From assembly GCA_964399865.1 (NCBI GenBank), contig CAYNRJ010000002.1, positions 22,151 to 86,150 on the forward strand: DNA of 64,000 nt, in the 5' to 3' direction. The translations under genes were made by a program, and so were the position numbers. The notes beneath the pieces are model-generated. The model was given only the letters and a program-made list of their open reading frames with translations. It did not search any database and was not told the origin of the DNA. Positions 1,008 through 48,393 of this stretch are shown here, piece by piece (within the stretch, counting starts at the first letter, position 1; each line of letters begins with the position of its first letter). The stretch comes from an uncultured Candidatus Saccharibacteria bacterium. GTDB lineage: Bacteria; Patescibacteriota; Minisyncoccia; Phycocordibacterales; UBA2100.

Positions 1008-3017
1008 TTGCGCTATACTTTATGCATGAGTCATGGGTCTCACGAAGAGGAAGACGCGCCAAGTCACGGTTCTTCGAGCGGTCAAACTGCTCCAAAAGAC
1101 GATGACAGTCGCATAACATATTTTGCAGCGACACACACCCGCGGCAAGCGTGAGATGTTTGGTATTCGCTCAGTCGACCGTGGCAAGCACGTGTACGTCA
1201 TCGGAAAAACAGGCATGGGCAAATCCACGATGCTTGAAAATATGGCGATCCAGGACATCCAAAATGGGGAGGGGATAGCCTTCATTGATCCGCACGGCGC
1301 AACAGCGGAAAAACTTTTGGACTTCATTCCTCACGAGCGCATAAAAGATGTGATTTATTTTGCGCCTTTCGATACCGATTACCCTGTGGGATTCAACGTG
1401 ATGGAAGACGTCGGCTATGACAAACGTCACCTCGTGGTCTCCGGTCTCATGGGTGCTTTGAAAAGAATCTGGGTAGATGCGTGGAGCGCAAGAATGGAAT
1501 ACATTTTGCAGAATACCCTCCTCGCACTTCTCGAGTATCCAGACTCCACACTTCTAGATGTGAACCGCATGTTCACAAACAAAGCATTTCGTACCGCGGT
1601 GGTCGAGAAGATCACAGACCCTGTGGTGAAATCATTCTGGACGGAAGAGTATGCGACCTTCACCGACACCTACACTCGCGAGGCAACTCCTGCTATTCAG
1701 AACAAGATAGGTCAGTTCACCGCGAATCCTCTCATTCGTAACATCATCGGTCAGGCGAAATCCACATTCGATCTCCGAGAGATCATGGACAAGAAAAAGA
1801 TCTTCATCGTGAACCTCTCCAAAGGGCGCATGGGGGAGACGAATGCCGCACTCTTAGGATCGATGCTCGTCGTTAAGATCTACCTTGCTGCGATGTCGCG
1901 AGCGGATGAGCCTGCAGCGCGGCTTGCCAAGTTGCCTCGTTTTTATTTCTACGTCGACGAATTCCAATCGATGATGAACGAGGCGTTCGCCGACATTCTT
2001 TCGGAATCGCGTAAATATAAACTCGCGCTCACCCTCGCAAACCAGTACATCGAACAGATGGAAGAAGAAGTCCGCGATGCTGTGTTCGGCAACGTCGGGA
2101 CCCTCATTTGTTTCCGCGTAGGACCATTTGATGCCGAAGTCTTGACCACAATTTTCGAGCCTACATTTACACCGGAGGATCTCGTCGGCCTTGGTATTGG
2201 TCAGATATACCTCACACTCATGATTGATGGCGTCGGCTCGCGGCCATTCTCAGCAGAAACAGTTCCACCGATCGAACCGCCTTCCATCTCATACCGTGAT
2301 GATTGTATCCGTCATTCGCGAGAACATTACGCTCGGCCTAGAGCGGAGATGGAAGCGTTCGTCATGAAGCGACAAACAGATTTCGCATCAAATCAGCAGC
2401 GAAGCGATAAATCGAGCCGATCACCGAGTAGAAGTTTTCCTCCACGATCTGGTGGCGACAGAGATCATTCGCCGCGAAGAGACGATGATAGATCACATGT
2501 GCGCGTAGGGGATACATCGCGACCTACTTCGCATTGGGGGGCACAGGGCGCAGCTACTCCTTCATCCCATGGACCGGATAGAGGAGAAAGAGACCGTAGG
2601 GATCCGAGAGAAATAGGACCACGAGTAAATTTTATAAATCGACCACCAACTCGTCCCGAGCCTCGTCACACACAGCAGACCGTTACAACAACCGAGCACT
2701 CTTCAGATAGCAGTGCGCAGCGCTCCGCGCTCCGTGCAGCTATAGCTGCTGCAAAGCCGCCAGCACCCTCATCCGCTTCTGAAAGTGGGGGCATTAAATC
2801 GCCGGCGGACCTCCTGCGTGAACGCAAAGCTGCAAAACAGGCGGCTCATGTAGACGAGCCAGAACTGTTCAGAAATAAATCTGAGGCACATGCAGGAAAT
2901 TCACACGCGCATACCGAAAAGAGTGCGCCACATCGGCCGCCAGAAGATGCCCACTCGGGGGAAGTATCTCCAGAAGTTCTACAGAGGGTTCTTAAAGGCG
3001 AAGATGAAAAGGCTTAA
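1008..3017 (+). CDS. Type IV secretion coupling-protein-like P-loop ATPase (TraD/VirD4/TraG-like, FtsK/HerA superfamily) with a disordered C-terminal tail of about 230 aa
   Basis: Walker A GKTGMGKST. Walker-B-like hydrophobic-DEF motif YFYVDEFQS. N-terminal ITYFA...FGIRS...H.YVIGKTG pattern typical of conjugative coupling ATPases in small-genome bacteria. The C-terminal third is low-complexity, rich in R/S/D/P. The true start may be the internal Met at about 1155. Confidence 0.6.
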   Translation: MRYTLCMSHGSHEEEDAPSHGSSSGQTAPKDDDSRITYFAATHTRGKREMFGIRSVDRGKHVYVIGKTGMGKSTMLENMAIQDIQNGEGIAFIDPHGATAEKLLDFIPHERIKDVIYFAPFDTDYPVGFNVMEDVGYDKRHLVVSGLMGALKRIWVDAWSARMEYILQNTLLALLEYPDSTLLDVNRMFTNKAFRTAVVEKITDPVVKSFWTEEYATFTDTYTREATPAIQNKIGQFTANPLIRNIIGQAKSTFDLREIMDKKKIFIVNLSKGRMGETNAALLGSMLVVKIYLAAMSRADEPAARLAKLPRFYFYVDEFQSMMNEAFADILSESRKYKLALTLANQYIEQMEEEVRDAVFGNVGTLICFRVGPFDAEVLTTIFEPTFTPEDLVGLGIGQIYLTLMIDGVGSRPFSAETVPPIEPPSISYRDDCIRHSREHYARPRAEMEAFVMKRQTDFASNQQRSDKSSRSPSRSFPPRSGGDRDHSPRRDDDRSHVRVGDTSRPTSHWGAQGAATPSSHGPDRGERDRRDPREIGPRVNFINRPPTRPEPRHTQQTVTTTEHSSDSSAQRSALRAAIAAAKPPAPSSASESGGIKSPADLLRERKAAKQAAHVDEPELFRNKSEAHAGNSHAHTEKSAPHRPPEDAHSGEVSPEVLQRVLKGEDEKA

Positions 3018-4473: not shown

Positions 4474-5343
4474 ATGTCGAAAGGCGGCAAAAAAGTGCTT
4501 GTCACAGGGGGAGCCGGGTTTATCGGCTCTCATTTGTGTCGTCGTCTTCTAAAAGAGGGTCACACGGTAATTTCACTCGATAGCTACCTCTCCGGTTCGC
4601 GTCACAATCATGTCGAGGGCGTCGAATATCGCGAAGGGCACACCAAAGACATCGAAACCCTTGTCCCAGAAACAGATATCGATCTCATATATCACCTTGG
4701 CGAATACGCTCGTGTAGAAGTAAGCCTTACCGAACCCGAAGTGGTCTGGGATTCAAACATACGTGGCACGTTTCGCGTTCTTGAATTCTGGCGCAAGCGA
4801 AAATGCAAACTCATCTATGCGGGTTCTTCGACGAAATTTGGCGACGGCGGGTTAGGACGCGATCAAAGTCCGTACGCGTGGACCAAAGCATCGAACACAG
4901 AGCTCGTTCGCAATTACGGTGTGTGGTTTGGGCTCCAGTATGCGATCACGTATTTTTATAACGTGTATGGTCCTGGAGAGCGCGCAGATAAATACGGTAC
5001 TGTCGTCGAAATATTTAGACAAAAGTTCCTAAAAGGAGAGCCACTTTCAGTGGTTTCGCCTGGGACGCAGAAGCGCAATTTCACACACGTGGACGACATA
5101 GTCGAAGGCCTTATAGTGATCGGCGAGAAGGGCGAGGGAGACGAATTTGGTCTCGGTAATCACAAAAAGTATTCAATTCTTGAGCTCGCACAGCTTTTTG
5201 GCACGGAGATCATTATGCTCCCCGAGCGGCCAGGGAATCGCACGGAATCCTCTATTGATACGTCAAAATCGGAAATGCTTGGGTGGAAAGCAACGCGAGA
5301 ACTCACCGACTACATCGAGAGTGTGGTTCGCGAGAAAGCATGA
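4474..5343 (+). CDS. NAD-dependent epimerase/dehydratase, short extended-SDR form of about 290 aa, paralog A
   Basis: N-terminal VLVTGGAGFIGSHL Rossmann motif. YAWTK catalytic YxxxK. About 60% identical by eye to the ORF at 24804..25700. Confidence 0.75.
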   Translation: MSKGGKKVLVTGGAGFIGSHLCRRLLKEGHTVISLDSYLSGSRHNHVEGVEYREGHTKDIETLVPETDIDLIYHLGEYARVEVSLTEPEVVWDSNIRGTFRVLEFWRKRKCKLIYAGSSTKFGDGGLGRDQSPYAWTKASNTELVRNYGVWFGLQYAITYFYNVYGPGERADKYGTVVEIFRQKFLKGEPLSVVSPGTQKRNFTHVDDIVEGLIVIGEKGEGDEFGLGNHKKYSILELAQLFGTEIIMLPERPGNRTESSIDTSKSEMLGWKATRELTDYIESVVREKA

Positions 5344-15933: not shown

Positions 15934-17001
15934 ATGGAAAACAAAACCATTCTTTTTTTCATTAATGCACTTGCGGTGGGTGGTGCGGAGAAGGTATTCA
16001 TTAAGCAAGCCGAGGCGCTCCGGAAGTCGGGATGGAATGTGCATTTTGCACTCGTTTTCCGAGAAGGTGATCTGCGCTCCAATCTCTCTCTTCCGAAAGA
16101 AAACGTGCACGTGCTCGGTATGCGTTCAATCTTCGATATTTTTGGGTATCTTCGAGCTCGTTCTCTTATTTCCAAACTGCGCCCGAATATCGTGTATTCC
16201 ACGCTGAATGAAGCGAACGCGATCGCGCGCATACTTTCGCTGATCTCGCCTCGCTACGCACTCATCACTCGCGAAGCGAACATGGCGGACATAAAGCCGT
16301 CGATTTATAAGACTCTCGATAAACTTCTCGGGTCGCGTTCGAAGGTGATAATCGCGGTGTCCGAAGCGGTGAAGGATTCACTCGCCGCATATGCGCCATA
16401 CCTCAAGGCGCGCACGAAGGTTCTCTATAACTCCGTAAATGTCCCAAGTGAAGCGCCAAATCGAGAATGGCCGCGAGGCGGGGATGTTAAGTTGCTTTCT
16501 GTGGGAAGTCTCGATGAGAAAAAGGACCACGAAATTCTCATACGAGCGCTTGCCCATCTTCCAGAACGATTTCACCTCACGATCATTGGGAAGGGGAAGC
16601 TTTTGTCGAAGCTTGAGAATGTCGCGGACAAAGTTGGCGTGCGAGGCCGTGTTAATTTCATGGGCGGAATTTCACCAAAAGATATGCCAGCACAATACGC
16701 AGCGCATCATCTATTTGTGCTTCCATCAAAACGCGAAGGATGTCCAAACGTTGTCCTCGAAGCGTATGCCGCCGCTCTGCCCGTCGTGGCGTTTGACATT
16801 CCTGGGATGAGCGAATTTGTCACCGAAAGTGCAGGAATTCTCGTGAAGGAACGAAACCCGCAAACTCTCGCCTCTGCCATCGAGCAAATAACCGAATCAG
16901 AGGAGAAGCTTCAGCAGATGGGGCAGGCAGGTTACGAACTTGTGAAAAAGGACTATACTCTAGAGAAGAAAGTGGGAGAGCTCGAGTCAATTATTAAATA
17001 G
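15934..17001 (+). CDS. Glycosyltransferase family 4
   Basis: N-terminal VGGAEKVF. C-terminal KREGCPNVVLEAYAAALPVVAFD (EX7E). Confidence 0.8.
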   Translation: MENKTILFFINALAVGGAEKVFIKQAEALRKSGWNVHFALVFREGDLRSNLSLPKENVHVLGMRSIFDIFGYLRARSLISKLRPNIVYSTLNEANAIARILSLISPRYALITREANMADIKPSIYKTLDKLLGSRSKVIIAVSEAVKDSLAAYAPYLKARTKVLYNSVNVPSEAPNREWPRGGDVKLLSVGSLDEKKDHEILIRALAHLPERFHLTIIGKGKLLSKLENVADKVGVRGRVNFMGGISPKDMPAQYAAHHLFVLPSKREGCPNVVLEAYAAALPVVAFDIPGMSEFVTESAGILVKERNPQTLASAIEQITESEEKLQQMGQAGYELVKKDYTLEKKVGELESIIK

Positions 17002-17019
17002 AACACACCTAGTAAGGTT

Positions 17020-17877
17020 ATGGTGTCCATTTGGTCAAAAATCGTAGCAGTCTTTACCTCCCTGCTTATCACTGTTGGGATCTACACAAATCCCACAGAA
17101 ACAATTCCTGTACAGCCCGAACCGAATACAGTTGTTGAAGAAATGGACAAGACTTTACCAACGCAAACCACTGATGAAAAATTGCCGATCCAAATCGCAG
17201 GGGATTCAATTAAAGTAGATGAAGTTCAGTGGGCTTTCGTCGTAAATAATACGCCCGTAACATCCGTGCCTTCCGCAAATTCGGAATGGGCTATTCGAAT
17301 AACAATACCGTCTTTACAATCGGGAGGTCTCGTATTTAGTACAGAGGATTGGATGGAGTCCCCATCAGTATACGAGAAACAATTGTTGAATCTAAGAAAT
17401 AATTTATTAAACAGTAAGAGTGCAGATATTGCTCGTTGGAACCAGATAATTGCAAGCGGCGAGGCAGACAATGTGATCGCACAAATTCGAGTCGAAATTC
17501 TCCAAATCGATGGACCGCTCGGAGAACGCAAACAAGCGTCGTCCTCTAAGACGCTATTTGAAGGATTGCTGCGAGATAATGCTCAAATCTGGGGGATGCT
17601 TGGAAAGACAGCGACGCCAGAACAATTAAAGGTTTTAGAACCCCTATGGGAGTCCCTTATCTCTATTTCGGAGGCCAAACTATTTATTCTTGATCGTCAT
17701 GTGCAGGTCAAACAAAAATTGATCGCCGCGATAGATTCGAATGATATAGAAAATATACTTGTCGCCGAACGCGACGATAAGACCATGGAACTCATATATT
17801 CGTGGCACGTAGACGGCTACAACAAGCTGAATGATAAGGAGCTTGCTTTGAAGAAAGGTTTCGGTCTCCCGAATTGA
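17020..17877 (+). CDS. Hypothetical N-terminally anchored or secreted protein
   Basis: Single N-terminal hydrophobic segment; no motif I recognise. Visibly AT-richer than the neighbouring GT genes. Confidence 0.5.
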   Translation: MVSIWSKIVAVFTSLLITVGIYTNPTETIPVQPEPNTVVEEMDKTLPTQTTDEKLPIQIAGDSIKVDEVQWAFVVNNTPVTSVPSANSEWAIRITIPSLQSGGLVFSTEDWMESPSVYEKQLLNLRNNLLNSKSADIARWNQIIASGEADNVIAQIRVEILQIDGPLGERKQASSSKTLFEGLLRDNAQIWGMLGKTATPEQLKVLEPLWESLISISEAKLFILDRHVQVKQKLIAAIDSNDIENILVAERDDKTMELIYSWHVDGYNKLNDKELALKKGFGLPN

Positions 17878-17893
17878 GAGTAGGGTGCAGGGA

Positions 17894-17946
17894 TCATTTC
17901 TTCTCCTCGTGATATTCCTCCTCGGTGTTGATGGCCCAGAGGTTTG
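17894..17946. repeat. Direct repeat copy 1 (53 bp, 2 mismatches versus 19015..19067); an orphan duplicate of the 3' coding end of the FAD-oxidoreductase gene
   Basis: The minus strand reads (T)[16 protein letters not shown] followed by a stop, identical to the C-terminus of the 19015..20604 gene. It lies immediately downstream of, and in frame with, the stop of the 17948..18958 gene. Confidence 0.85.
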
Positions 17947-17947
17947 T

Positions 17948-18958
17948 TTATGGAGTCAGACGCCGATCAGTGAATAATCGTTTGAGTAGTCCGAAAAGTG
18001 TTGTCTCGCCACGTCCGAAAAAGAGTAGAAGAATCGCGGAGCAATAGACAACAAAGTCTTCGACTTCCCACACATGTGATTGAATGAGCATGGCAGTGAC
18101 AGACGCCATAAAGAAAAGCGAGATAAAGATTGTTGTTATTCGTGGCACGTAGCCGAGTATAAAGACGATTCCAAAAAGCATTTCAGCAAAACCAGTACTT
18201 AATACAAACAGGTTATCGGAAAACCACGGGAAGAGAGGCATCATAAAGTTCCACGGGTGTTCAGCAAGGAATTGCAAACTCCATTCGGGATACAGTAATT
18301 TCTCTGTAAAGGCGAGGGTAATGAGTGAAATCCCCGTACCAATTCGCACGATATCTAAGGCGTATATTTTAAGAAACGCGGGTATCGATTTGGTTGATGA
18401 GTGAATAATGAAAAAGTACGCGGCCAGTGAAAATAGAATCGCGTTTTCAAGCACAGCCTCAAGACCGTGAGGGAGTGTTACAAGCGCACATAGAATTAAA
18501 AGGCAGGCAGTTGCAATGCGGGGGAAGAGATTCAAAATAAGCAAAATTCCGATAACAATTTGTGCGACTTTCAGGACGACAAGAACCGGATCGTTTACTT
18601 CAATCGATGGCATTATGACAACGTTCCAGAAAAGACCAACGCTCACCAGAAAAATACCGAGCACAGCCTGTGCAACTCGATTAATGATGTTTCTGTGGGT
18701 TGCTACGAATACTTCAAGCGTACGTATTGGCCGCGAATGTGCATCTATGAATAGTGCAGCAATTATCACAATCAACCCGATTGCACACCATGCTAAGACT
18801 TCAGGGCTTTGCCATGAGTAAAAATCAATCGTCCCATGCTTGCCTTCAATAATCTCTTCGCTCTCTTCTACGAGCCACTTTGCATGCGCGAGTGCAATCG
18901 CAGGTATGCTCAAAATTGCAACTACCGAAGCAGAGAAGACTTTTATACCTATTTTCAT
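17948..18958 (-). CDS. Hypothetical polytopic integral membrane protein (at least 8 TM helices)
   Basis: Hydrophobic throughout; no recognisable catalytic motif. About 42 to 45% GC by eye versus about 52% in the flanks. Bracketed by the 53-bp direct repeats. Confidence 0.6.
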   Translation of the reverse strand: MKIGIKVFSASVVAILSIPAIALAHAKWLVEESEEIIEGKHGTIDFYSWQSPEVLAWCAIGLIVIIAALFIDAHSRPIRTLEVFVATHRNIINRVAQAVLGIFLVSVGLFWNVVIMPSIEVNDPVLVVLKVAQIVIGILLILNLFPRIATACLLILCALVTLPHGLEAVLENAILFSLAAYFFIIHSSTKSIPAFLKIYALDIVRIGTGISLITLAFTEKLLYPEWSLQFLAEHPWNFMMPLFPWFSDNLFVLSTGFAEMLFGIVFILGYVPRITTIFISLFFMASVTAMLIQSHVWEVEDFVVYCSAILLLFFGRGETTLFGLLKRLFTDRRLTP

Positions 18959-19014
18959 TCCAATATCTTAACACCACATAACCACATAAGATGGGTAAAA
19001 GCAGACAGTAACAC

Positions 19015-19067
19015 TCACTTCTTCTCCTCGTGATACTCCTCCTCGGTGTTGATGGCCCAGAGGTTTG
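19015..19067. repeat. Direct repeat copy 2; the functional 3' end of the FAD-oxidoreductase CDS
   Basis: TCACTTCTTCTCCTCGTGATACTCCTCCTCGGTGTTGATGGCCCAGAGGTTTG. Matches 17894..17946 except for two C/T differences. Confidence 0.85.
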
Positions 19068-20604
19068 ATTTGTTGGTTATGCCTGCAGCGATGTTATCGA
19101 CCGCGGTCATTGCGGCTAGCATGGAGTGGTCCTGATTGTTGTAACGGTGCATACCGTTGCGTCCCACAGGGAAAAGATTCGTAAATGTATCGAGATAGGC
19201 ACGCACCTGGGGGAACTGCTCATACGCACCGAAGTAGGCCGGGTATGCTTTCGGTTGGCGGATGACGGTGCCATCGATGATTTTAATACCTTGTCTTACG
19301 CCGATTTTCCCTAGCTCCTCTTCACCAAGTTTGATGAGATCAGCATCTTTCATATTCCAGAGCTTATCGCCCTCGTTTACGAAATACTCGAGCCCGATCC
19401 AGCCATTTTCTTGATTTGCGACAAGCTTAGGATGCCAGTTGTGGAAGAGTTGAATGCGACCCACGTGAACTCCCGGCTCGTGCACGTACATCCAGGTGTC
19501 CGTAAGAGGTGAGCCGTCTTTTTCAGTCGGTCGTTTCTCCAGCAGAAGTCCGACAGTGAGGAAATCACGGTACTGCAATTTGCTCGCTATGTTTTTAATT
19601 TCGGACGGGGCGGTCGGCATCATAGAAAGTAGATAGCGAATATCTGCGGTCGAAAATACGAAATCCGCAGGAATGCTTTCTTTCTTTCCATTCTGTTCAA
19701 TTGTCACAGAGGCGATTCGGTTACCTTCTATCTCTAGATTGGTGACTTTCGTACCCATGCGCACTTCGCCGCCCATCTCTTTCACTTTTTTAGCGGCAAC
19801 TTCCCACATCTGACCGGGGCCATACGTCGGATACAGAAATTGCTCGATGAGAGAAGTCTCGACGCCTTTACCTGCAAGAGGGCCGACGCGCGCGAGCTTT
19901 TTCACCGCATGCACAACAGCTTTCTTTATGGAGAGCCCCTTCACGCGCTGTGCGCCCCATTCCGCCGACAATTCAGTGCAGGGAACACCCCACACCTTTT
20001 CCGTATAGGATTTAAAGAATGTCTCATACAGTTCGCGACCGAAGCGGTTCAAGAAGAAGTCCTCAAGTGTTTTCTCAGGACGAATAGGAAGCAGTGCGGC
20101 GAGCGTGTACGTGATGCCGATTTTTACCACCTTGATCGGCCCAAGCTTCCACAGCGTATCGAGAGAAAGTTCTATCGGATATGCAAAAAGTTTTCCGCCG
20201 TAGATTATGCGCGTTTTTCGGGGGCGAACTGTCATGACATTCTCGCCGTCTTTTTCTGTCGCTTCTTTGAGTCCGGCGGTGAGTGCGCGCGTCGTACGCT
20301 GATATGTAATCTCGGCACCCTTTTCCGCGCGCACAGGAAGCATCTCTGCCCACCATTTCATTACACGATCTGATTTTGAAAAGAACCTGTGTCCACCGAT
20401 GTCTATGCGATTGCCTTTGTAATTAACTGTTTTTGAAATACCACCGACATATACGGGATCCATTTCGATCACGATCGGATGCACATCAGTGCGTTTTAGA
20501 AGCTCGAATGCGGCTGTGAGTCCTGCGGGACCCGCGCCTATGATGACCGCGGTTTTTTTCGCACTCATGTTAGGCGCGGAAGAGGAGCCACTTTCGTGCT
20601 CCAA
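19015..20604 (-). CDS. FAD/NAD(P)-binding oxidoreductase (amine-oxidase / UDP-galactopyranose-mutase-like superfamily)
   Basis: [16 protein letters not shown] dinucleotide-binding motif, then ...IDIGGHRFF, a family common in O-antigen loci. About 529 aa. Confidence 0.7.
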
Positions 20605-21019
20605 AATTCCATGAGAAGACGACGATGACGCTTGCGAACTTCGAGATCATGAAAAAGAAACCAAAGAGGTCTGTGAAAAGCCAGAGAATAAGTTCGTTGA
20701 GTCCAAGGCCGATAAGGCCGATGACCGCGAATATCAAGAATTCTGCCTTCCAATTTCGTACCGCACGCTGATCAAAAACCCAGTAGATACTTAAGAAGTA
20801 TATGAGAGTGAGACCTAGCGTGAACGCGATCGCGCCAGAATAGAGGTAAGGAACTTCAAATACGCTCGTGAGTACCCAAAGAACACCCGCGTCGACGATA
20901 AGAGCTACCGCAGAAGCCGCAAAATAGCGGATGAACTCATGGATGCCTTTTGAGCCGGCAACTGCGAGGGCAGTATTCGATTCCGCTTCAGGGGTCGTTA
21001 CAATGTCCGATTCGGCCAT
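20570..21019 (-). CDS. GtrA-family small membrane protein
   Basis: About 150 aa with 4 TM helices; [22 protein letters not shown] pattern. Start taken at the internal Met, 57 nt in from the ORF-track start. Sits next to a GT-C gene. Confidence 0.65.
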
Positions 21020-22404
21020 ATTCGCTTCATTATAGCCCTGACGATGAAGACTGCCGAATACGCCGCGGCGACCCACAGCATTGGCTCAATAGGTAGGCGA
21101 TAGCGTGGCTGGGACACTGGGCTTGTGATGACGGCGTTCGCGAGAATGATGAGGACGGTGAGAAGAAGAAATAGTCGCACGTATCCTTTGGCAAAGAGTG
21201 GACTTATGAACGCGAGCGCAAAAAGAATGACCCACAGAAGTCGCTCAAGTGTGATGGGCCATGAGCTAAGAATATTTCCCATGACGCCGCTCCAGTCTTT
21301 GGCGCGTACAAGTTCGCCGAGCGATGTACCACTCGGAGTGATAAGTGGAACCCGAGCTGAAGAATCGCTTGAGATCGTTGCTCCGATGACGTTGAGTCCG
21401 CTACTAATGAAGAACGGAATCGTGCGCGAAAAATGAAATCCAACGTACGACATGAATCCTTCTTTAAGAAGATGCTCTTTCGCGATTGCACCGAGTTCAT
21501 CTGCATACGAGAAACTCTTGTGTGTATCAAACGCAGAGCCGCCCATAGGTGCGAGGATTGTCTCCCGCTCCTCGTTCACCGAGGAGCCGTGTTTCCACGC
21601 GAGGAATTCTGGGACGTTGTAATAGGCAAGATTGTACGCAGAAACCGACGAGAGTGAGAAGTGTCCGGCGACGACATAATTGCGTAGCATCCACGGCACA
21701 AGAACTGCAGCGAAAAGTGCGAAGGCAACGAGAGCCTTTATGATTCGCTCTCGCACGAGAGTCCCCTGCGGCGCAAAGAAAAGAATCGCGGCAAAGACAG
21801 GAAGCGAAATGTAGAGTCCGAGTGGTCGCACGAGTGTCGCAAGTCCCAGAATTGCACCGATCGCGACTGCGAGACGGTACGAATATTCTTGTGGGAGCTT
21901 GAGTAACAAAAGCATAGCCGCCGCAAACATAAGTGTGTAGAGAACATCTCCGCCCATACCTGTGATGGTTTGAAGAACGAGTGCGGGACTCACACCAACA
22001 CAGAATGCAAGAAAGAGAGCGAGACGGTGTCGCAATTCAACCCTCCGTGCAAAAAGATAAGCAACAGCGCCGATTCCGGCTGCGAGGACAGACTGCACGA
22101 AGAAAAGAAACCAGAAAGAACCATTCGATATAAAAAGCGCGAGCGCCACGAAGAACGGATATCCAGGAGTACGAAATGTTTCTGGCTCGGCATCTTTCGA
22201 TAGTACGAACGCTCCATTTTGCAGGAATGACTCACCAAGTTTTATGTATTGCCCTGAATCTTGCGAAAGTATCCGCTCTTTAAAATCAATCCCATGGCGA
22301 TTATAAAAACTGATGGTGAGCGCAAGGAAGGCAAGATGTACTGTGACAACGACCAAAGAAAGTATTACAAGCTGGCGAACCTCTCGTTTTTGGATGTTGA
22401 ACAT
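20998..22404 (-). CDS. GT-C fold glycosyltransferase (ArnT/PMT/GT39-GT83-like)
   Basis: Polytopic protein with a first periplasmic loop ...PETFRTPGYPFFVA, matching the RxPGYP-like loop motif of ArnT/PMT proteins. Confidence 0.65.
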   Translation of the reverse strand: MFNIQKREVRQLVILSLVVVTVHLAFLALTISFYNRHGIDFKERILSQDSGQYIKLGESFLQNGAFVLSKDAEPETFRTPGYPFFVALALFISNGSFWFLFFVQSVLAAGIGAVAYLFARRVELRHRLALFLAFCVGVSPALVLQTITGMGGDVLYTLMFAAAMLLLLKLPQEYSYRLAVAIGAILGLATLVRPLGLYISLPVFAAILFFAPQGTLVRERIIKALVAFALFAAVLVPWMLRNYVVAGHFSLSSVSAYNLAYYNVPEFLAWKHGSSVNEERETILAPMGGSAFDTHKSFSYADELGAIAKEHLLKEGFMSYVGFHFSRTIPFFISSGLNVIGATISSDSSARVPLITPSGTSLGELVRAKDWSGVMGNILSSWPITLERLLWVILFALAFISPLFAKGYVRLFLLLTVLIILANAVITSPVSQPRYRLPIEPMLWVAAAYSAVFIVRAIMKRIWPNRTL

Positions 22405-22410
22405 GAGGGA

Positions 22411-23124
22411 CTAGCTTTTCTTTACGCACTTGAAAATAAGGCGCTTCATTTTCTTGTGGAGGAATGGGAGAAAGAATGCTGCGAAGAGTTCTACCTTGTG
22501 CTTCCAGCCGTAGTAGTACAAATTGTCCGACCCCTTGTAGCGAGCGATAGTAAGTCCGTGCCTCTCCAGAAGCGAACGCACTTCTTCGAATCTGAAATAA
22601 TGATCATCGATCGGCTGCATTTTCTTGTTGCGGATCTTGTCGTAGAAATCATACGAAGCCCAGTCGCGATTTGGGACTGTGACTATTGCAGTTCCACCTG
22701 GCTTTAAAACGCGGACGAGTTCTGAGACCGCTTTGTCAAAGTCGAGCATGTGCTCGAGGACCTCGGTCATAAAGACGACATCAAACATGGCGCTCTCGTA
22801 AGGAAGTGCTTCTGCATCGCCGACGCGGAGATCAGCGTCGGGGTTTGCCTTTTTCGCTTCCTCGACAAGTTTTGGGGCGATGTCGATGCCAAAAAGTTGC
22901 TGCGATGAGGTACGCGGCACTCTTTTGAGGAGTGAGCCGACACCACAACCAATGTCCAGGATCTTGCCGCTGTAAGAGCCGTGCATAGCGATACAGCGAT
23001 CATAAAAGCCCGTTTCAAGGCCCATTTTATGCACGATAGCGTCGTACCCTGCCGCAATGTCTTGTTTACTTATGTTCCGACCTTCCTCCATATGATTTTC
23101 GTCATAATAGCACCCGAGTCTCAA
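22411..23124 (-). CDS. Class I SAM-dependent methyltransferase (type 11)
   Basis: ILDIGCGVGSL motif I. Confidence 0.75.
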   Translation of the reverse strand: MRLGCYYDENHMEEGRNISKQDIAAGYDAIVHKMGLETGFYDRCIAMHGSYSGKILDIGCGVGSLLKRVPRTSSQQLFGIDIAPKLVEEAKKANPDADLRVGDAEALPYESAMFDVVFMTEVLEHMLDFDKAVSELVRVLKPGGTAIVTVPNRDWASYDFYDKIRNKKMQPIDDHYFRFEEVRSLLERHGLTIARYKGSDNLYYYGWKHKVELFAAFFLPFLHKKMKRLIFKCVKKS

Positions 23125-23157
23125 TTGGCGGGCGCGTGGTATAAATCCTGTACCACT

Positions 23158-23970
23158 ATGGATAGGGATACGAAAAACAGATTCGCGTTTGGCAAGAATT
23201 GGCAGAAATTTCTTCCAAATATCACCGACGAGCGAATAGAGAAGGCGAAGAAGTCTCTCACGAGTTTTCTCGGGATGTCTGATCTTAAGGGTAAGACTTT
23301 CATCGACATTGGAAGTGGCAGCGGGCTTTCTTCATATGCGGCATTTCAGCTTGGCGCGGACCGCATCGTGAGTTTCGACTACGATCAAAATTCTGTCGCT
23401 GCGACAAGAAAAATGTGGGAGAAGGCAGGGAAGCCGCAGAAGTGGAATGTAGAACAAGGATCAGTCCTAGATACGGAGTATTTGAAACAGCTCGGCACAT
23501 TCGACATCGTGTATTCGTGGGGAGTTCTTCATCACACGGGAGACATGTGGAGCGCAATCAGGAATTCCGCGAACATGGTAAAAACTGGTGGCCAGTACTA
23601 CATTGCGCTCTACAATAATGTGGAAGGGCGACTCGGTTCTCGTAAGTGGTTACTCATCAAGAAGATATACAATCGCGCACCGAAGATAGGGAAATTCATT
23701 ATGGACTGGATCTATATTTTTATCTTCCATATTCTTGCGAACTTGCTGCGTTTCAAGAATCCGATTACTGAGATGCGCGCGTACGGAAAATCTCGCGGTA
23801 TGCACTGGCGAGAAGATGTAAGCGATTGGCTCGGCGGATATCCGTACGAGTACGCTTCGTCCGGCGAAGTCTTCGCGTTTATGAAAAAAGAATTTCCAAC
23901 GTTCACACTCACTAATTTGAAAACGACATCGAGCATCGGGAACAATTGGTTCCTCTTCAAACGAGCATGA
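23158..23970 (+). CDS. Class I SAM-dependent methyltransferase
   Basis: FIDIGSGSGLSS motif I. Start placed at the internal Met (MDRDTK) to avoid overlapping the divergent gene; only about 33 bp separate the two divergent starts. Confidence 0.7.
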   Translation: MDRDTKNRFAFGKNWQKFLPNITDERIEKAKKSLTSFLGMSDLKGKTFIDIGSGSGLSSYAAFQLGADRIVSFDYDQNSVAATRKMWEKAGKPQKWNVEQGSVLDTEYLKQLGTFDIVYSWGVLHHTGDMWSAIRNSANMVKTGGQYYIALYNNVEGRLGSRKWLLIKKIYNRAPKIGKFIMDWIYIFIFHILANLLRFKNPITEMRAYGKSRGMHWREDVSDWLGGYPYEYASSGEVFAFMKKEFPTFTLTNLKTTSSIGNNWFLFKRA

Positions 23971-24803: not shown

Positions 24804-25700
24804 ATGGCCAACACAGAGACCAAGAAAACAGTCATTGTGACCGGCGGGGCCGGCTTTGTTGGTACGGAATTAATAGGTCTACTTCTTCCAAAGTACCGAG
24901 TTGTCTCGCTAGATAACTATTTCCTCGGCAAGGAATCTAATCATGTGCCAGGTGCTGAGTATATAAAAGGACACACGAAAGATATTGCACAGCTCCTCGG
25001 TGACGAGAAGCCGGTCATTATCTTCCATCTCGGAGAATACTCTCGTGTCGAGCAGAGTTTTAATGATATCGAGCTCGTGTGGAAATCGAATGTTGAGGGC
25101 ACGTTCAGTGTTTTTGAATTTTGGAGGAAACTAAATGCAGCGGGGCACACATGCAAACTCGTGTACGCGGGATCTTCGACGAAGTTTGCCGATGGTGGGC
25201 TTGGGCGCGATCAGAGTCCGTACGCGTGGATGAAAGCAACCAACACAGAATTGGTCATCAACTACAGCGCGTGGTTCAAATTGCCGTATGCGATCACGTA
25301 CTTCTACAATGCGTATGGTCCGCATGAACTCTCTGAAGGTCAGTACGCATCGGTTGTCGGAAGATTCAAAGAGCTTTTTTGGAAAGGGGAGCCAATCACA
25401 GTCACGATGCCGGGGACACAGCGCCGTAATTTCACGCACGTAAATGATCTCGCACGCGGACTTATGATGGTCGGAGAAAAAGGGGAAGGTGACGGCTACG
25501 GACTCGGCGCACCTGATTCATACACCATCCTCGAGATTGCACAGATGTTTGGTGGCGAGATAAAAATGCTTCCAGAGAGAAAGGGGAATCGTATGGAATC
25601 ACAACTCGATACCTCTCGAGCGCAGAAAGAATTTGGATGGAAGGCAGAACATACGATCAAAGAGTATATTGAGTCTCTGAAGAAGCAGAAGAAAAAGTAA
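24804..25700 (+). CDS. NAD-dependent epimerase/dehydratase, short form, paralog B
   Basis: VIVTGGAGFVGTEL; YAWMK. Clear paralog of 4474..5343. Confidence 0.75.
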   Translation: MANTETKKTVIVTGGAGFVGTELIGLLLPKYRVVSLDNYFLGKESNHVPGAEYIKGHTKDIAQLLGDEKPVIIFHLGEYSRVEQSFNDIELVWKSNVEGTFSVFEFWRKLNAAGHTCKLVYAGSSTKFADGGLGRDQSPYAWMKATNTELVINYSAWFKLPYAITYFYNAYGPHELSEGQYASVVGRFKELFWKGEPITVTMPGTQRRNFTHVNDLARGLMMVGEKGEGDGYGLGAPDSYTILEIAQMFGGEIKMLPERKGNRMESQLDTSRAQKEFGWKAEHTIKEYIESLKKQKKK

Positions 25701-45615: not shown

Positions 45616-46131
45616 TTAAAGGCTGAGAAATTCTGTAAGTTTCTCAATGCCTTGCTCGATACTGACTTCGTTTGTCTTTATTGTTATCTCGGGATTAATC
45701 GGTTTTTCGTATGGATTTTTATCACTCATGCCGATGAGGTCGTCTTTCTCACCCGCTTTCGCTTTTGCATAGAGTCCTTTTGTATCGCGTGCGATACAGA
45801 CTTCGAGGGGGCAATCGATAAAGACTTCAATGTAGCCTTCCCCGATTATTTGTCTTGATCGTGCTCTATCTTCCAAGAAAGGTGAGATGACGGAAACAAG
45901 TACGAAATCATTCGAGGCAGCTTTTTCTTTCGCATATTCTGCAATGAGTCGGTTGTTCTCGCGAATATCGTCGCGAGAGAATCCGTGTTTGTGTCCGTGC
46001 ATCTTTCGCACTTCGTCGCCATCGAGCAAGTAGGCTGACTTTTCGATTTTCTTCAAGGTAGTGTGGAGAGCGTTTGCAAGCGTTGATTTGCCTGAGCCGC
46101 TTAAACCTGTGAACCACAACACTTTTCCCAT
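45616..46131 (-). CDS. cysC: Adenylyl-sulfate (APS) kinase
   Basis: VLWFTGLSGSGKSTLA P-loop; about 171 aa. Immediately downstream of the sulfurylase fusion gene. Confidence 0.85.
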   Translation of the reverse strand: MGKVLWFTGLSGSGKSTLANALHTTLKKIEKSAYLLDGDEVRKMHGHKHGFSRDDIRENNRLIAEYAKEKAASNDFVLVSVISPFLEDRARSRQIIGEGYIEVFIDCPLEVCIARDTKGLYAKAKAGEKDDLIGMSDKNPYEKPINPEITIKTNEVSIEQGIEKLTEFLSL

Positions 46132-46134
46132 GGA

Positions 46135-48393
46135 TTATTCTACAAACACTTTCTTCCCTTTTTTAATCAAGTCGAGAATTAGCTCTGAAATCTCAGGTCG
46201 CATGAACCACTCCGGAAGCTTTTTGCCCGAAAGGAGAGTCTTTCTCGCTTCAGTTCCGCTGATGTGTAGCTTTTCACCCTCGTTGTGTTTGGAGGTGTCG
46301 TCAGCTTCATGCACGTGCCTACGCTCCTTCTCTGAATAAAAAACGTGATTGAACTTTACCGGTACAATTCCAAGATCTGGGAATTTCTCGAAGATATCGT
46401 GAGATGCGGTCGGGGCGTAGAAATTACCTACGCCAGTGTGATCGCGGCCGATAATAAAATGACTGCATCCAAAATTCTGCCGACAGATCGCAGTAAACAA
46501 TGCCTCGCGCGGACCAGCGTAGCGAGAGAACGTCGCGTATGTACCAAATACGGCACTGTGTTTACGATAAAACTGCTTCATCATAAGCGCGTATGATGCG
46601 ACAATCGTCTCCGCTTCAAAGTCACCTTTTTTCTTCTTTCCAACAATAGGATGAATAAAAAGTCCATCAGCAAAGGATCGGCGTAGGGCCTCGAGTTGGA
46701 TAAACTCGTGTCCCCTGTGTATTGCGTTTCGTGTATGGAAGGCAACTATCTTTGCCCAGCCGCGATCAACGAAGAGTCGGCGAGATTGTCTTGGGGTAAG
46801 TTCGTAGCGTTTTGTTGGAGAATCAAAACGTTTGAGAAGAGTTATTTTTCCAGCAAGAAAGAGTGGCTTCATTGTTAGCGCTTCGGCGACACCGGGGTGA
46901 GCTGGGTCTTTCGTACCGTACATTTTCTGAACGAATTTTTCCCTGTCGTACGTATATTTTTCTTTGAGATGAAGTATGCCGACCGTCTCTCCTTTTTTAT
47001 TCGTAAGAGCCACGTCCTGCTTTAGTTTCATTTTCTTTGCTTCCTCCTCACTGGCATCCAAAACAATCGGCATAGGCCAAATGACGCCGTTTGCGAGCCG
47101 CATGCGAGAAAGCACAGATTCAAGGTCTTTTTTACCAAGGAATCCTTCAAGTGGACTGAACGTGCCGATCGCGATCTGTTCGATATCCATGTGCTGTTCG
47201 TCGGTAATCTGAAGAGTATGCAATCCCTTCTTTGGAGTGTAGGAAGAATCCGCTACCCTATCGACGAGAACGCCGCCATTTGGCTCTACCAACGCTGATT
47301 CACTACTTCCGGAGAGCAGGTAGTCGCCTGTATCAAGCTGTTTTACATACGGAAGACCAACTGGGCGAACTTTCGCAGGGACGAATCTTTCCGCCTGGTC
47401 AATCAGTTTATTGATCGTTGTAATAACTTCGATCGGGTATTTGCCTATAGCGGTTTCCGCTGCGAGCGTGAGTCCATATGCACCATCAAGAATTGTTTGG
47501 ATAACATCGTGTACTTCCGCTCGAGTCGGATTCTTCTTTTGTACCATTGATTCGAGCAGGTTCGTCGCAACGAAGACACCTTTTTTCTTTTTACGCGCTC
47601 TGTCCATGACGATCTTTTGTGTGAAAGGTATGCGCTCGATCGGGACCTCACGGCTCAAGTCTCCGCGGTCTATGAGGAGGAAATCAGACTTATCGATGAT
47701 CTTATCTAGAGATTCGAGTGCTTCGACGCATTCGATCTTGGAAATTATTTTCATGCGATTCTTCGACACCTTACGGACGAGGTCGACTGTTTCCGGGGAA
47801 CGAACAAACGACACAGCGATATGCTCGACCCCTTCCTTAAGAGCGATCTGTATCGCTTCAAGGTCTTTCGGCGAAAGGGCAGGGAGGTCGTATTTCTTCT
47901 TTGAAGCAGAATCGATGACGACACCCTTATTCATTCCCATCTGACCGCCTGTGATCGCTGACGCGACTACATAACCGTTTGTCTTGAGTGGCGAAATATC
48001 CAGCACCCGAAACACCAGCGAGTCGAAATCTACATAGATAAGGTCGCCTTCCTCCAATTGCGTAACGATATTCCCCGGTCGAAGCGACATGCGAGTTTTA
48101 TCTCCCACTATCTCTTCTTTATAAATATTGACGATATCGCCCTCTTCAATCGAGACTTCTCGATTTGCTATTGCGCCATTACGAACCTGAGAGCCTTCAG
48201 TGTCGAGAATGAATGGAACGCCGACCTCGCGTGCCATTTTCATAAAACGTCGCTGGTCTTCTATGCTCGAGTGCGACATATTTACACGCACGAAATCGAC
48301 TCCGCGGTCTTTAAGCATTCGCAGGCTCTCCTCTGTGTTAGTGGAGGGTCCGAGCGTGACGACTATCTTTGTTTTTGTAGAATGTTTCCCCAT
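46135..48393 (-). CDS. sat: Fusion protein: N-terminal pyruvate kinase catalytic domains (about 370 aa, no C-terminal regulatory domain) joined to a full-length C-terminal sulfate adenylyltransferase (ATP sulfurylase)
   Basis: PK motifs KTKIVVTLGP, VNMSHS, KIISKIEC (catalytic Lys context), IDRGDLSREVP, ATNLLESM, AAETAIGKYP. The Sat part has the N-terminal PUA-like domain (...GTFSPLEGFLGKKD...VIWPMPIVLD) and the QTRN/HRAH-type motif FHTRNAIHRGHEF, plus GRDHTGVG. Confidence 0.8.
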   Translation of the reverse strand: MGKHSTKTKIVVTLGPSTNTEESLRMLKDRGVDFVRVNMSHSSIEDQRRFMKMAREVGVPFILDTEGSQVRNGAIANREVSIEEGDIVNIYKEEIVGDKTRMSLRPGNIVTQLEEGDLIYVDFDSLVFRVLDISPLKTNGYVVASAITGGQMGMNKGVVIDSASKKKYDLPALSPKDLEAIQIALKEGVEHIAVSFVRSPETVDLVRKVSKNRMKIISKIECVEALESLDKIIDKSDFLLIDRGDLSREVPIERIPFTQKIVMDRARKKKKGVFVATNLLESMVQKKNPTRAEVHDVIQTILDGAYGLTLAAETAIGKYPIEVITTINKLIDQAERFVPAKVRPVGLPYVKQLDTGDYLLSGSSESALVEPNGGVLVDRVADSSYTPKKGLHTLQITDEQHMDIEQIAIGTFSPLEGFLGKKDLESVLSRMRLANGVIWPMPIVLDASEEEAKKMKLKQDVALTNKKGETVGILHLKEKYTYDREKFVQKMYGTKDPAHPGVAEALTMKPLFLAGKITLLKRFDSPTKRYELTPRQSRRLFVDRGWAKIVAFHTRNAIHRGHEFIQLEALRRSFADGLFIHPIVGKKKKGDFEAETIVASYALMMKQFYRKHSAVFGTYATFSRYAGPREALFTAICRQNFGCSHFIIGRDHTGVGNFYAPTASHDIFEKFPDLGIVPVKFNHVFYSEKERRHVHEADDTSKHNEGEKLHISGTEARKTLLSGKKLPEWFMRPEISELILDLIKKGKKVFVE

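What the first reader, a model, noticed from the sequence alone, without database searches (positions are those of the whole stretch)
17894..19067. 53-bp direct repeat of a gene's 3' end brackets an AT-rich 1.1-kb insert carrying one membrane-protein gene
The last 17 codons plus stop of the FAD-oxidoreductase gene ([16 protein letters not shown]) occur twice with 2 mismatches. One copy is the real gene end (19015..19067). The orphan copy (17894..17946) lies directly after the stop of a visibly AT-richer polytopic membrane-protein gene, and is in frame with that stop. This is the signature expected from insertion of foreign DNA into the 3' end of a protein-coding gene with reconstitution of that end, leaving attL/attR-like sites. 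It could also be cassette capture or a decayed integrative element that has lost its integrase. The adjacent hypothetical gene 17020..17877 is also AT-rich, so the island may be larger and older.
Basis: seen in the sequence. Interest (0 to 1): 0.65.

Follow-up and report, generated by a model that had tools for sequence, protein, structure and literature searches.

The report
Gene-gain scar duplicating a gene's end
A small Patescibacteria genome gained one foreign-looking membrane-protein gene right behind a sugar-pathway flavoenzyme gene. The event left a spare 56-base copy of that gene's end, a tidy but ordinary recombination scar with no sign of a mobile element.

Summary
The repeat is real. 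Positions 17894-17949 (orphan, A) and 19015-19070 (true 3' end of the FAD-oxidoreductase gene, A') match at 53 of 56 bases, 1121 bp apart. There are only two copies in 64 kb, and independent assemblies confirm the junctions.

The 1065 bp between them carry an intact DoxX-like membrane-protein gene. With the neighbouring near-orphan gene 17020-17877 they form the only stretch of the window below 44% GC.

Relatives show empty sites. In the closest one (FADox 91% aa identity) the gene ends 16 nt from a convergent, unrelated 136-aa ORF. In two others it abuts the convergent glycosyltransferase directly. So the insertion reading is supported.

The attL/attR or integrative-element reading is not supported:
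- No recombinase among the window's 50 largest ORFs, no tRNA and no terminal inverted repeats.
- No viral match to the tail or the cargo.
- None of 83 other FADox loci has a second tail.
- None of 84 other DoxX-like loci has a comparable short repeat of a neighbour's gene end.

The best explanation is a one-off 3'-end displacement: incoming DNA carrying the gene end plus the DoxX-like gene recombined in and pushed the old end downstream.

One oddity is unexplained. The last 67 nt of FADox are 66/67 identical to the closest relative, although the genes are about 82% identical overall.

Interest is low to moderate.

The parts
19015..19070 (-). A': the functional 3' end (last 16 sense codons plus TGA, and about 5 nt upstream) of the FAD oxidoreductase gene; repeat copy 2
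   Evidence: It is contiguous with the rest of the gene. It is 53/54 identical to the tail of the closest relative L090.
19015..20568 (-). FAD-dependent oxidoreductase gene (517 aa from the ATG; an upstream TTG at 20604 gives 529 aa). It is the third gene of the PMT2-GtrA-FADox operon.
   Evidence: NCBIfam NF005546 (PRK07208.1-2), 732.7 bits against a cut-off of 418, matched to profile position 526 of 527. Pfam NAD_binding_8 and Amino_oxidase. The C-terminal motif W..N.E..YHE is conserved across phyla.
18959..19014 (-). 56-nt AT-rich spacer (GC 0.375) between the FADox stop and the start of the DoxX-like gene
   Evidence: There is no sigma-70-like promoter match, so co-transcription with the operon is inferred.
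17948..18958 (-). Inserted cargo: an intact 336-aa polytopic membrane protein of a DoxX-like family that is widespread in Patescibacteria
   Evidence: 181 homologs were found; the best non-self hits are 57-59% identical. The alignment is full length, including the C-terminus. All 28 aligned members hit PF07681 DoxX weakly. The AF2 model is all-helical with pLDDT 83.5. GC is 0.435.
17894..17949 (-). A: the orphan (displaced) copy of the FADox 3' end; repeat copy 1. It has no start codon and is preceded by an in-frame TAA.
   Evidence: It is 55/57 identical to the L090 tail. Logan contigs L081 and L085 link it physically to the DoxX-like gene on one side and to gene 17020-17877 on the other.
17878..17893 (.). 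16-nt gap between the orphan's stop codon and the stop of convergent gene 17020-17877. This is probably the original downstream context of FADox.
   Evidence: The spacing (16 nt) is the same in L090 between the FADox stop and its convergent ORF, but the sequence is different.
17020..17877 (+). Hypothetical 285-aa gene with an N-terminal hydrophobic segment. It is AT-rich and forms the second part of the variable slot.
   Evidence: GC 0.432, the lowest in the window. No family hit in Pfam, PHROGs, PADLOC or NCBIfam. Only itself was found among 5.8 billion proteins, and 6 remote homologs among 1.84 billion representatives. It is not homologous to the 136-aa ORF at the same position in L090.
17002..19014 (.). 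Low-GC variable slot between the two convergent operons (GT1 stop to FADox stop), interrupted by the native-like orphan A
   Evidence: GC is 0.431 and 0.433 for the two parts against 0.50 in the flanks. Nucleotide similarity to L090 is undetectable from about 16947 to 19014, apart from the orphan A; the GT1 C-terminus is still conserved at protein level up to its stop at 17001.
20570..22404 (-). Upstream operon genes: GtrA-family protein (20570-21076) and PMT_2 / GT-C-type glycosyltransferase (20998-22404)
   Evidence: Pfam. The order PMT2-GtrA-FADox is conserved in relatives.
15934..17001 (+). Convergent GT1-family glycosyltransferase, the other conserved flank of the slot
   Evidence: Pfam. 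It is syntenic in L090, and a GT1 gene directly abuts FADox in L171 and L172.

Best explanation
This is the scar of a single gene-gain event at the junction of two convergent cell-surface-glycan operons in a Patescibacteria (Paceibacteria/Kaiserbacteria-like) genome.

The ancestral state was PMT2-GtrA-FADox facing the GT1 operon, with FADox ending at what is now the orphan copy A (17894-17949).

Incoming DNA carried a near-identical FADox 3' end followed immediately by a 56-nt spacer and a DoxX-like membrane-protein gene. It recombined with the chromosome through that homology. There are two possible routes:
- a homologous anchor in FADox plus an illegitimate join just upstream of the recipient's last 16 codons, or
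- a single crossover of a circularised 1.1-kb fragment.

The result is a 3'-end displacement. FADox now finishes with the incoming copy A'. The DoxX-like gene has become the fourth gene of the operon, probably co-transcribed. The recipient's own gene end has been pushed 1121 bp downstream as a non-functional fragment.

Shown: the repeat, the insertion relative to empty sites in relatives, the atypical composition, intact genes, and the absence of mobile-element hallmarks.

Inferred: the recombination route, the donor being a related lineage that already carried the DoxX-like gene behind FADox, and co-transcription.

The two 56-nt repeats could also allow a clean deletion that restores the single-tail state.
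For: 1. Empty sites. L090 (FADox 91% aa, about 80% nt) has FADox, then 16 nt, then a convergent 136-aa ORF, GT1 and AsnB, with one tail and no DoxX-like gene. In L171 and L172 the FADox stop lies 0-4 nt from the convergent GT1. Fifteen more relatives lack the DoxX-like gene within 10 kb.

2. Composition. The slot is the only stretch of the window below 0.44 GC, while both tail copies have native-like sequence. DoxX-like genes elsewhere sit only 1.0 +/- 2.3 GC points below their flanks, against about 5 points here.

3. Boundary. A and A' stop matching exactly at the stop codon. That is the same nucleotide (+0/+1) at which similarity between this genome and L090 stops. This fits a donor whose slot content began right after the stop codon, rather than a random new breakpoint.

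4. One-off event. Only the window has a second tail among 84 FADox loci. Among 85 DoxX-like loci only the window has a short repeat of a neighbour's gene end flanking the gene; L142 has a 715-nt 84% repeat and L158 a weak 36-nt one.

5. No mobile-element hallmarks: no recombinase family match among the 50 largest ORFs of the window, no tRNA, no terminal inverted repeats, no phage or defence family hits, no viral hits.

6. The cargo is intact to its natural C-terminus.

7. Precedents. Rhs C-terminal displacement by recombination with circular intermediates (PMC2935791). Homology-facilitated illegitimate recombination proposed for orphan arrays (PMC5361080). Single-crossover integrations that duplicate the homologous segment dominated an E. 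coli assay (PMC3240628).
Against: - No donor-type arrangement (FADox, stop, spacer, DoxX-like gene without an orphan) was found among the other 83 FADox loci tested or the 84 fetched DoxX-like loci. The only adjacency, L114, has the opposite gene order.
- A' has native-like composition while the cargo is AT-rich. The donor must therefore itself have acquired the gene earlier, which is an extra step.
- Classical homology-facilitated illegitimate recombination usually deletes recipient DNA rather than duplicating it.
- 56 bp is short for RecA-dependent recombination.
- The microhomology at the join between the DoxX-like gene's end and A is weak and ambiguous.
- The recombination route cannot be told apart from a replication template switch on sequence alone.
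Confidence: 0.58

Rival explanations
1. The structure is a remnant or satellite of a site-specific integrative element. The 56-bp repeats would be attL and attR, the element would carry its own copy of the FADox end (as e14 does for icd), and the integrase would be lost or encoded elsewhere in the genome.
For: - Direct repeats bracket the insert, one copy completes the target gene, and identity ends at the stop codon.
- Relatives show empty sites.
- The cargo is AT-rich.
- The last 67 nt of FADox are 66/67 identical to L090 although the gene is about 82% identical. Element-borne copies overwriting host ends could produce this.
- Precedent: e14 flanked by icd and the icdC fragment (PMC13626634).
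Against: - None of the window's 50 largest ORFs matches a recombinase family.
- The unit is only 1121 bp and holds one ordinary membrane-protein gene.
- There are no PHROG or PADLOC hits.
- No viral contig carries the tail or the cargo.
- No other FADox locus among 83 has an orphan tail. No other DoxX-like locus among 84 has a comparable repeat of a neighbour's gene end.
Confidence: 0.12
2. Foreign DNA was inserted directly with a long target duplication and no donor homology. This could be fill-in of a staggered break, or a replication template switch (microhomology-mediated) that copied the 56 nt twice around a captured 1065-bp fragment.
For: - Both repeat copies are native-like and exactly the DNA between them is AT-rich. 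A single step explains this without needing a related donor that already had the gene.
- No donor-type arrangement was found.
Against: - One boundary of the duplication falls exactly on the stop codon, which would be a coincidence under this model, roughly 1 chance in 17 or less.
- Known bacterial target-site duplications are far shorter (general knowledge). There are no terminal inverted repeats and no ORF matching a transposase family.
- The two copies differ at 2-3 positions, so they are either not recent or not copied from one template.
Confidence: 0.17
3. This is a purely local event without horizontal origin: a tandem duplication of FADox followed by decay, or a second FADox copy downstream of the DoxX-like gene (the gene order seen in L114) deleted down to its last 56 nt.
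For: - L114 shows that a DoxX-like gene can sit directly upstream of a PRK07208-type FADox.
- The orphan is in frame with the preceding stop codon, though that alone has a 1 in 3 chance.
Against: - Relatives have empty sites.
- The cargo's composition is atypical.
- This reading needs several extra steps.
- No other FADox-derived sequence remains between the copies.
Confidence: 0.05
4. Assembly artefact: a chimeric join or a collapsed or expanded repeat.
For: - The repeat length (about 53-56 nt, with a 31-nt exact core) is in the range of assembler k-mers.
- Logan contigs break at the 31-mer.
Against: - Contigs from independent runs, 100% identical, span DoxX-like gene to A to gene 17020-17877 (L081, L085) and A' to spacer to DoxX-like gene (L081, L082).
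- The two copies carry distinguishing SNPs, each linked to its own flanks.
Confidence: 0.02

Closest known systems
Prophage e14 (and phage 21) integration into the 3' end of E. coli icd, leaving the icdC C-terminal pseudogene
   Same: An insert sits inside the 3' end of a protein-coding gene. The insert supplies a replacement end that keeps the gene intact. The original end remains as an orphan fragment on the far side. Recombination between the two copies can remove the insert (PMC13626634).
   Different: e14 is a 15-kb prophage with its own site-specific recombination system and SOS-induced excision. Here the insert is 1.1 kb with one membrane-protein gene, no recombinase family match among the window's 50 largest ORFs, and no recurrence in other genomes.
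C-terminal (3'-end) displacement at rhs, CDI and T6SS effector loci
   Same: Incoming DNA with homology to the constant part of a gene brings a new 3' end plus a downstream gene. It pushes the old 3' end downstream as a dissociated, start-less fragment. The proposed routes are recombination with circular intermediates, or a homologous anchor plus an illegitimate join (PMC2935791, PMC5361080).
   Different: In those systems the displaced tips are variable toxin domains with immunity genes, and arrays build up under selection. Here the displaced end is the same conserved sequence, there is a single event, and the gained gene is a DoxX-like membrane protein in a glycan operon.
Campbell-type single-crossover integration or homology-facilitated illegitimate recombination in transformation and conjugation experiments
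   Same: A short homologous segment ends up duplicated on both sides of the inserted DNA. In the E. coli assay most events were such duplications, of 109-950 bp (PMC3240628).
   Different: Those are laboratory constructs with selectable markers. Here the homology is only about 56 bp, and neither the donor nor the uptake route is known.
Integron gene cassettes
   Same: A small (about 1 kb), single-gene unit with no consensus promoter match, inserted in the orientation of an upstream promoter.
   Different: There is no IntI, attI or attC-like imperfect inverted repeat. Integron insertion does not duplicate 56 bp of a neighbouring gene.

Membership tests
Site-specific integrative element at a gene 3' end (e14/icd type) | Direct repeats (att core) bracket the insert, and one copy completes the target gene | tested here: met
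   56-nt repeat, 53/56 identical, at 17894-17949 and 19015-19070. The latter is the gene's real end.
Site-specific integrative element at a gene 3' end (e14/icd type) | An integrase or recombinase is encoded in or next to the element | tested here: not met
   The insert holds one DoxX-like gene. None of the window's 50 largest ORFs (120 aa or more, non-overlapping set) has a recombinase, integrase or transposase Pfam hit. A recombinase encoded outside the 64 kb is not excluded.
Site-specific integrative element at a gene 3' end (e14/icd type) | Unoccupied target site in related genomes | tested here: met
   L090, L171 and L172.
Site-specific integrative element at a gene 3' end (e14/icd type) | The same element or att sequence recurs in other genomes or in viral contigs | tested here: not met
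   None of 83 other FADox loci has a second tail. Among 84 other DoxX-like loci none has a comparable repeat of a neighbour's gene end; L142 has a 715-nt 84% repeat and L158 a weak 36-nt one. There are no viral hits for the tail or the cargo.
Site-specific integrative element at a gene 3' end (e14/icd type) | Excision to a circular form and a restored empty site within the population | not testable with these tools
   This needs read-level data from the source runs (e.g. SRR14271366, SRR14271372, SRR14271373, SRR13076587).
Transposon / insertion sequence | Terminal inverted repeats and a transposase, with a short target-site duplication | tested here: not met
   There are no inverted repeats at the insert ends and no ORF matching a transposase family. 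A 56-nt duplication is far longer than typical target duplications (general knowledge).
Integron cassette | An IntI integrase with attI, and an attC imperfect palindrome at the cassette end | tested here: not met
   There is no IntI-like protein among the window's 50 largest ORFs. No inverted repeat lies near the 3' end of the DoxX-like gene.
3'-end displacement by recombination with incoming DNA (rhs-tip type) | The gene keeps its 5' body, receives a replacement 3' end plus an extra downstream gene, and the old 3' end lies downstream without a start codon | tested here: met
   The order is FADox body, A', spacer, DoxX-like gene, A. A is preceded by an in-frame TAA and has no start codon.
3'-end displacement by recombination with incoming DNA (rhs-tip type) | The incoming segment is of foreign origin | tested here: met
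   The insert has GC 0.433 against 0.50 in the flanks and is the lowest-GC kilobase of the window. Family-intrinsic bias explains only about 1 point. The gene is absent from relatives at this locus.
3'-end displacement by recombination with incoming DNA (rhs-tip type) | A donor-type arrangement exists in other genomes (the gene followed directly by the cargo) | tested here: not met
   It was not seen in 83 other FADox loci or 84 other DoxX-like loci. L114 has the reverse order. Sampling of close relatives is thin, with only one at 91% aa identity.
3'-end displacement by recombination with incoming DNA (rhs-tip type) | Microhomology at the illegitimate junction | tested here: inconclusive
   At the junction the orphan copy reads TAAA-CAAACC and the real copy CAAATCAAACC. 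Identity decays over about 5 nt and one indel is possible.
DoxX family (Pfam PF07681), for the cargo protein | Score above the Pfam gathering threshold | tested here: inconclusive
   The window protein scores 14.3 bits against a cut-off of 23.6 (E 0.068). All 28 aligned family members hit DoxX, with a best E of 1.1e-6, and 15 hit DoxD. Some sources name homologs YphA (DoxX/SURF4). There is no PDB fold match.
NCBIfam NF005546 (PRK07208.1-2) FAD/NAD(P)-dependent oxidoreductase, for the target gene | Full-length match above the curated cut-off | tested here: met
   732.7 bits against 418, covering profile positions 3-526 of 527.

The most novel reading that the evidence does not exclude
The conserved last 55-67 nt of this FAD-oxidoreductase gene may be a dedicated attachment site through which integrase-less, single-gene cassettes are loaded into the glycan locus of Patescibacteria by a recombinase encoded elsewhere. 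Element-borne copies of the tail would repeatedly overwrite the host's gene end. That would explain why the tail is 66/67 identical between two lineages whose genes are otherwise about 82% identical.
Probability: 0.06. Interest if true: 0.6.

Novelty: new member of a known kind. Interest (0 to 1): 0.25.

Why it matters
Patescibacteria have small genomes with few recognisable mobile elements, so physical traces of how they gain genes are uncommon. This locus is a clean, dated example with three parts:
- an occupied site,
- empty sites in relatives,
- the recombination scar between them.

It shows a single gene being added to the end of a surface-glycan operon at a convergent-operon junction that also varies in relatives. 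It is useful as an illustration and as a marker for strain typing, and for testing reversible gain and loss through the 56-nt repeats. It does not reveal a new kind of system. The nucleotide-level conservation of the gene's last 67 nt between lineages is the only feature that could point to something more specific.

Tried and rejected
- **Assembly chimera.** Rejected: Logan contigs from independent runs span the junctions at 100% identity.
- **DoxX-like gene as a general mobile cassette.** 84 homologous loci were fetched from metagenomes and Logan. None has a comparable short repeat of a neighbour's gene end. L142 has a 715-nt 84% repeat flanking the gene and L158 a weak 36-nt one; neither was followed up. 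The common end point of three contigs, 43 nt after a homolog (L087-L089), turned out to be a palindromic terminator hairpin, not a repeat.
- **FADox tail as a recurrent insertion site.** 83 other loci were scanned at nucleotide and peptide level, with no second tail.
- **Phage or defence association.** There were no PHROG, PADLOC or viral-contig hits.
- **RNA structure or a terminator for the convergent operon, as the reason the tail is so conserved.** Folds on both strands are no better than shuffles (z from +0.13 to +1.47), with no consistent hairpin. No consensus terminator was found at A on the + strand.
- **Gene 17020-17877 and the 136-aa ORF of L090 as diverged homologs.** BLASTP gives E of 1.7 or worse.
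- **Function of the cargo from structure.** The AF2 model is confident (pLDDT 83.5), but Foldseek against the PDB gives nothing below E = 0.36.
- **Exact look-up of the FADox protein.** It failed for both start choices. Its 90% cluster holds it as member P0241.
Full report
**Observation.** The window carries a two-copy direct repeat, 17894-17949 (A) and 19015-19070 (A'), 56 nt long and 53/56 identical, with a start-to-start spacing of 1121.
- No other comparable repeat of this kind exists in the 64 kb.
- A 49-nt core pattern matches twice against 0.00 expected.
- A' is the true end of a 517-aa FAD-dependent oxidoreductase (529 aa from an upstream TTG) on the minus strand, ending ...[16 protein letters not shown].
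- A lies directly after the TAA stop of a 336-aa polytopic membrane-protein gene (17948-18958, minus strand) and is in frame with it.
- Both mismatches in the coding part are synonymous third-position transitions.

**Not an artefact.** Logan assemblies of other sequencing runs give contigs that are 100% identical to the window.
- L081 covers 19027 to 17574, running from A' through the spacer, the membrane-protein gene and A into the convergent gene.
- L082 covers 19066 to 17917.
- L085, from another run series, covers 16158 to 18419.
- L083 and L084 end inside the 31-nt exact core, as expected for k=31 graphs.
- The SNPs that distinguish A from A' are each linked to their own flanks.

**Gene content.** On the minus strand the order is as follows.
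- A PMT_2 / GT-C-type glycosyltransferase (20998-22404).
- A GtrA-family protein (20570-21076).
- FADox: NCBIfam NF005546, 732.7 bits against a cut-off of 418, matched to the last profile positions.
- A 56-nt spacer.
- The membrane-protein gene.
- The orphan A.
- 16 nt, and then the stop of a convergent 285-aa hypothetical gene (17020-17877).
- That gene is preceded by GT1 (15934-17001) and an asparagine-synthase-like gene.

The membrane protein has no family hit of its own above threshold. It is nonetheless a full-length member of a family common in Patescibacteria: 181 hits, with the best non-self hits 57-59% identical, some named YphA (DoxX/SURF4). All 28 aligned members hit Pfam DoxX weakly and 15 hit DoxD. 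An AF2 model is confident (pLDDT 83.5) and all-helical, but has no solved structural relative.

The 285-aa gene is nearly an orphan. Only itself was found among 5.8 billion proteins, and six remote homologs among 1.84 billion representatives.

**Composition.** The two genes are the lowest-GC genes of 50 in the window: 0.432 and 0.435 against a mean of 0.481 (sd 0.019), with GC3 of 0.427 each. All 1-kb windows below 0.44 GC lie in 16801-19100. By segment:
- about 16947-17893: 0.431
- A: 0.464
- 17950-19014: 0.433
- A': 0.500
- rest of FADox: 0.503
- GT1 body: 0.504

In 25 other loci, DoxX-like genes are only 1.0 +/- 2.3 GC points below their flanks. The roughly 5-point deficit here is therefore mostly not a family property.

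**Comparative evidence.** The closest relative found is L090 (NCBI contig JAKFZD010014438.1; FADox 91% aa, about 80% nt identity).
- It has PMT2, GtrA and FADox. After 16 nt comes a convergent 136-aa ORF that is unrelated to the 285-aa gene, then GT1 and the AsnB-like gene.
- It has one tail and no DoxX-like gene.
- In L171 and L172 (77% aa) the FADox stop lies 0-4 nt from the stop of a convergent GT1.
- Fifteen further Patescibacteria loci have no DoxX-like gene within 10 kb.

The junction between the convergent operons is therefore a variable slot: empty, or holding a 136-aa ORF, or holding the 285-aa gene plus the DoxX-like gene. The DoxX-like gene is a gain in this lineage.

**Is it a mobile element?**
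- None of the window's 50 largest ORFs matches an integrase, transposase or other recombinase family. The window is almost entirely a glycan-biosynthesis super-cluster.
- There is no tRNA gene.
- There are no terminal inverted repeats.
- There are no PHROG or PADLOC hits.
- No viral contig carries the tail sequence or a DoxX-like relative.
- Among 85 DoxX-like loci, only the window has a short repeat of a neighbour's gene end flanking the gene. L142 has a 715-nt 84% repeat and L158 a weak 36-nt one, neither examined further.
- Among 84 FADox loci, only the window has a second tail.

The event is a one-off.

**Mechanism.** A and A' stop matching exactly at the stop codon. That is also the nucleotide at which similarity between this genome and L090 stops. 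This fits incoming DNA from a related lineage in which the slot content (spacer plus DoxX-like gene) began right after the FADox stop.
- The homologous FADox end anchored the recombination.
- The other end joined illegitimately about 56 nt upstream of the recipient's stop codon. Equivalently, a circularised 1.1-kb piece integrated by a single crossover.
- Either way the recipient's own end (A) is displaced downstream.
- The same logic has been proposed for rhs C-terminal displacement through circular intermediates (PMC2935791) and for orphan arrays at T6SS loci through homology-facilitated illegitimate recombination (PMC5361080).
- In an E. coli assay, most recovered events were single crossovers that duplicated the homologous segment (PMC3240628).

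Weaknesses of this account:
- No donor-type locus was found.
- The only adjacency of a DoxX-like gene and a FADox gene (L114) has the opposite order.
- A' is native-like while the cargo is AT-rich, so an earlier acquisition in the donor is needed.

A direct insertion with a long fill-in duplication, or a replication template switch, would explain the composition in one step. It makes the stop-codon boundary a coincidence. A site-specific element (the e14 icd/icdC type, PMC13626634) remains possible only as a decayed or trans-mobilised form.

No sigma-70-like promoter match lies in the spacer, so the new gene is probably read from the operon promoter. This is an inference.

**Unexplained.** The last 67 nt of FADox are 66/67 identical between the window and L090.
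- They are the most conserved 67-mer in 5.8 kb of alignable sequence, where the 99th percentile is 61/67.
- Synonymous third-position identity is 20/21 in the tail against 0.53 in the rest of the gene.
- Comparable pairs show no such excess: L002-L003 have 0.67 and L011-L012 have 0.50.
- More distant relatives vary freely at these sites.
- No RNA structure signal exists on either strand.
- With L090 as outgroup, one change falls in A' (GAA to GAG) and one in A (AAG to AAA).

A recent recombination tract ending at the slot boundary is the simplest reading, but it is untested.

**Verdict.** The insertion and gene-end reconstitution reading is supported. The att-site or integrative-element reading is not. 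This is a new instance of a known kind of scar (3'-end displacement), of modest interest.

Noticed in passing
window 19015-19081 versus L090 3301-3367: The last 67 nt of the FAD oxidoreductase gene are 66/67 identical to the closest relative, although the genes are about 82% identical. Synonymous third positions are 20/21 identical in the tail against 0.53 in the rest of the gene. Other pairs of similar divergence do not show this, and there is no RNA structure signal.
   Followed up: partly
L114 7938-10637; L087 3187-6990: DoxX-like genes sit next to flavoenzymes in other genomes. In L114 one lies directly upstream of a PRK07208-type FADox. In L087 two DoxX-like genes flank an FAD_binding_4 / FAD-oxidase_C gene. 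This may indicate a functional partnership between this membrane-protein family and flavin oxidoreductases.
   Followed up: partly
window 17020-17877: The 285-aa AT-rich gene with an N-terminal hydrophobic segment is nearly an orphan. Only itself was found among 5.8 billion proteins, and six remote homologs (best 34% identity) among 1.84 billion representatives. It has no family hit in any library.
   Followed up: yes
window about 5283-58420: Almost the whole window is one very large cell-surface glycan region. It contains many GT1, GT2 and GT-C glycosyltransferases, two NeuB genes, epimerases and aminotransferases, an MBOAT protein, PIG-L, an ABC exporter and a Wzy_C/TPR protein. That is unusually much for a small-genome Patescibacterium.
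   Followed up: no
window 45616-48393 and 54703-56118: A 752-aa protein fuses a pyruvate-kinase barrel, a PUA_2 domain and ATP-sulfurylase. It lies next to an APS kinase, and a sulfatase gene is nearby. This suggests sulfate activation for a sulfated glycan, and the domain fusion is unusual.
   Followed up: no
window 1008-3017: A 669-aa protein has a TrwB/VirD4-type coupling-protein domain (E 2.7e-09) at the edge of the glycan region.
   Followed up: no
window 4803-4973 and 25151-25321: A 171-nt direct repeat, 78% identical, with copies 20 kb apart. It is probably paralogous coding sequence.
   Followed up: no
L087, L088, L089 (last 30 nt of each): Three independent contigs end at the same point, 43 nt after a DoxX-like gene, in a perfect palindromic terminator hairpin (AAAAACGCCGAGCTAAAGCTCGGCGTTTTT). 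This is an assembly break point, not a biological repeat.
   Followed up: yes
L142 927-1641 and 3603-4317: A 715-nt direct repeat, 84% identical, flanks a distant DoxX-like gene in one metagenome contig. It is probably a duplicated neighbouring gene.
   Followed up: no
window 22411-23124 (-) and 22981-23970 (+): Two methyltransferase ORFs on opposite strands overlap by about 140 nt as listed. The + strand gene probably starts at a later start codon.
   Followed up: no
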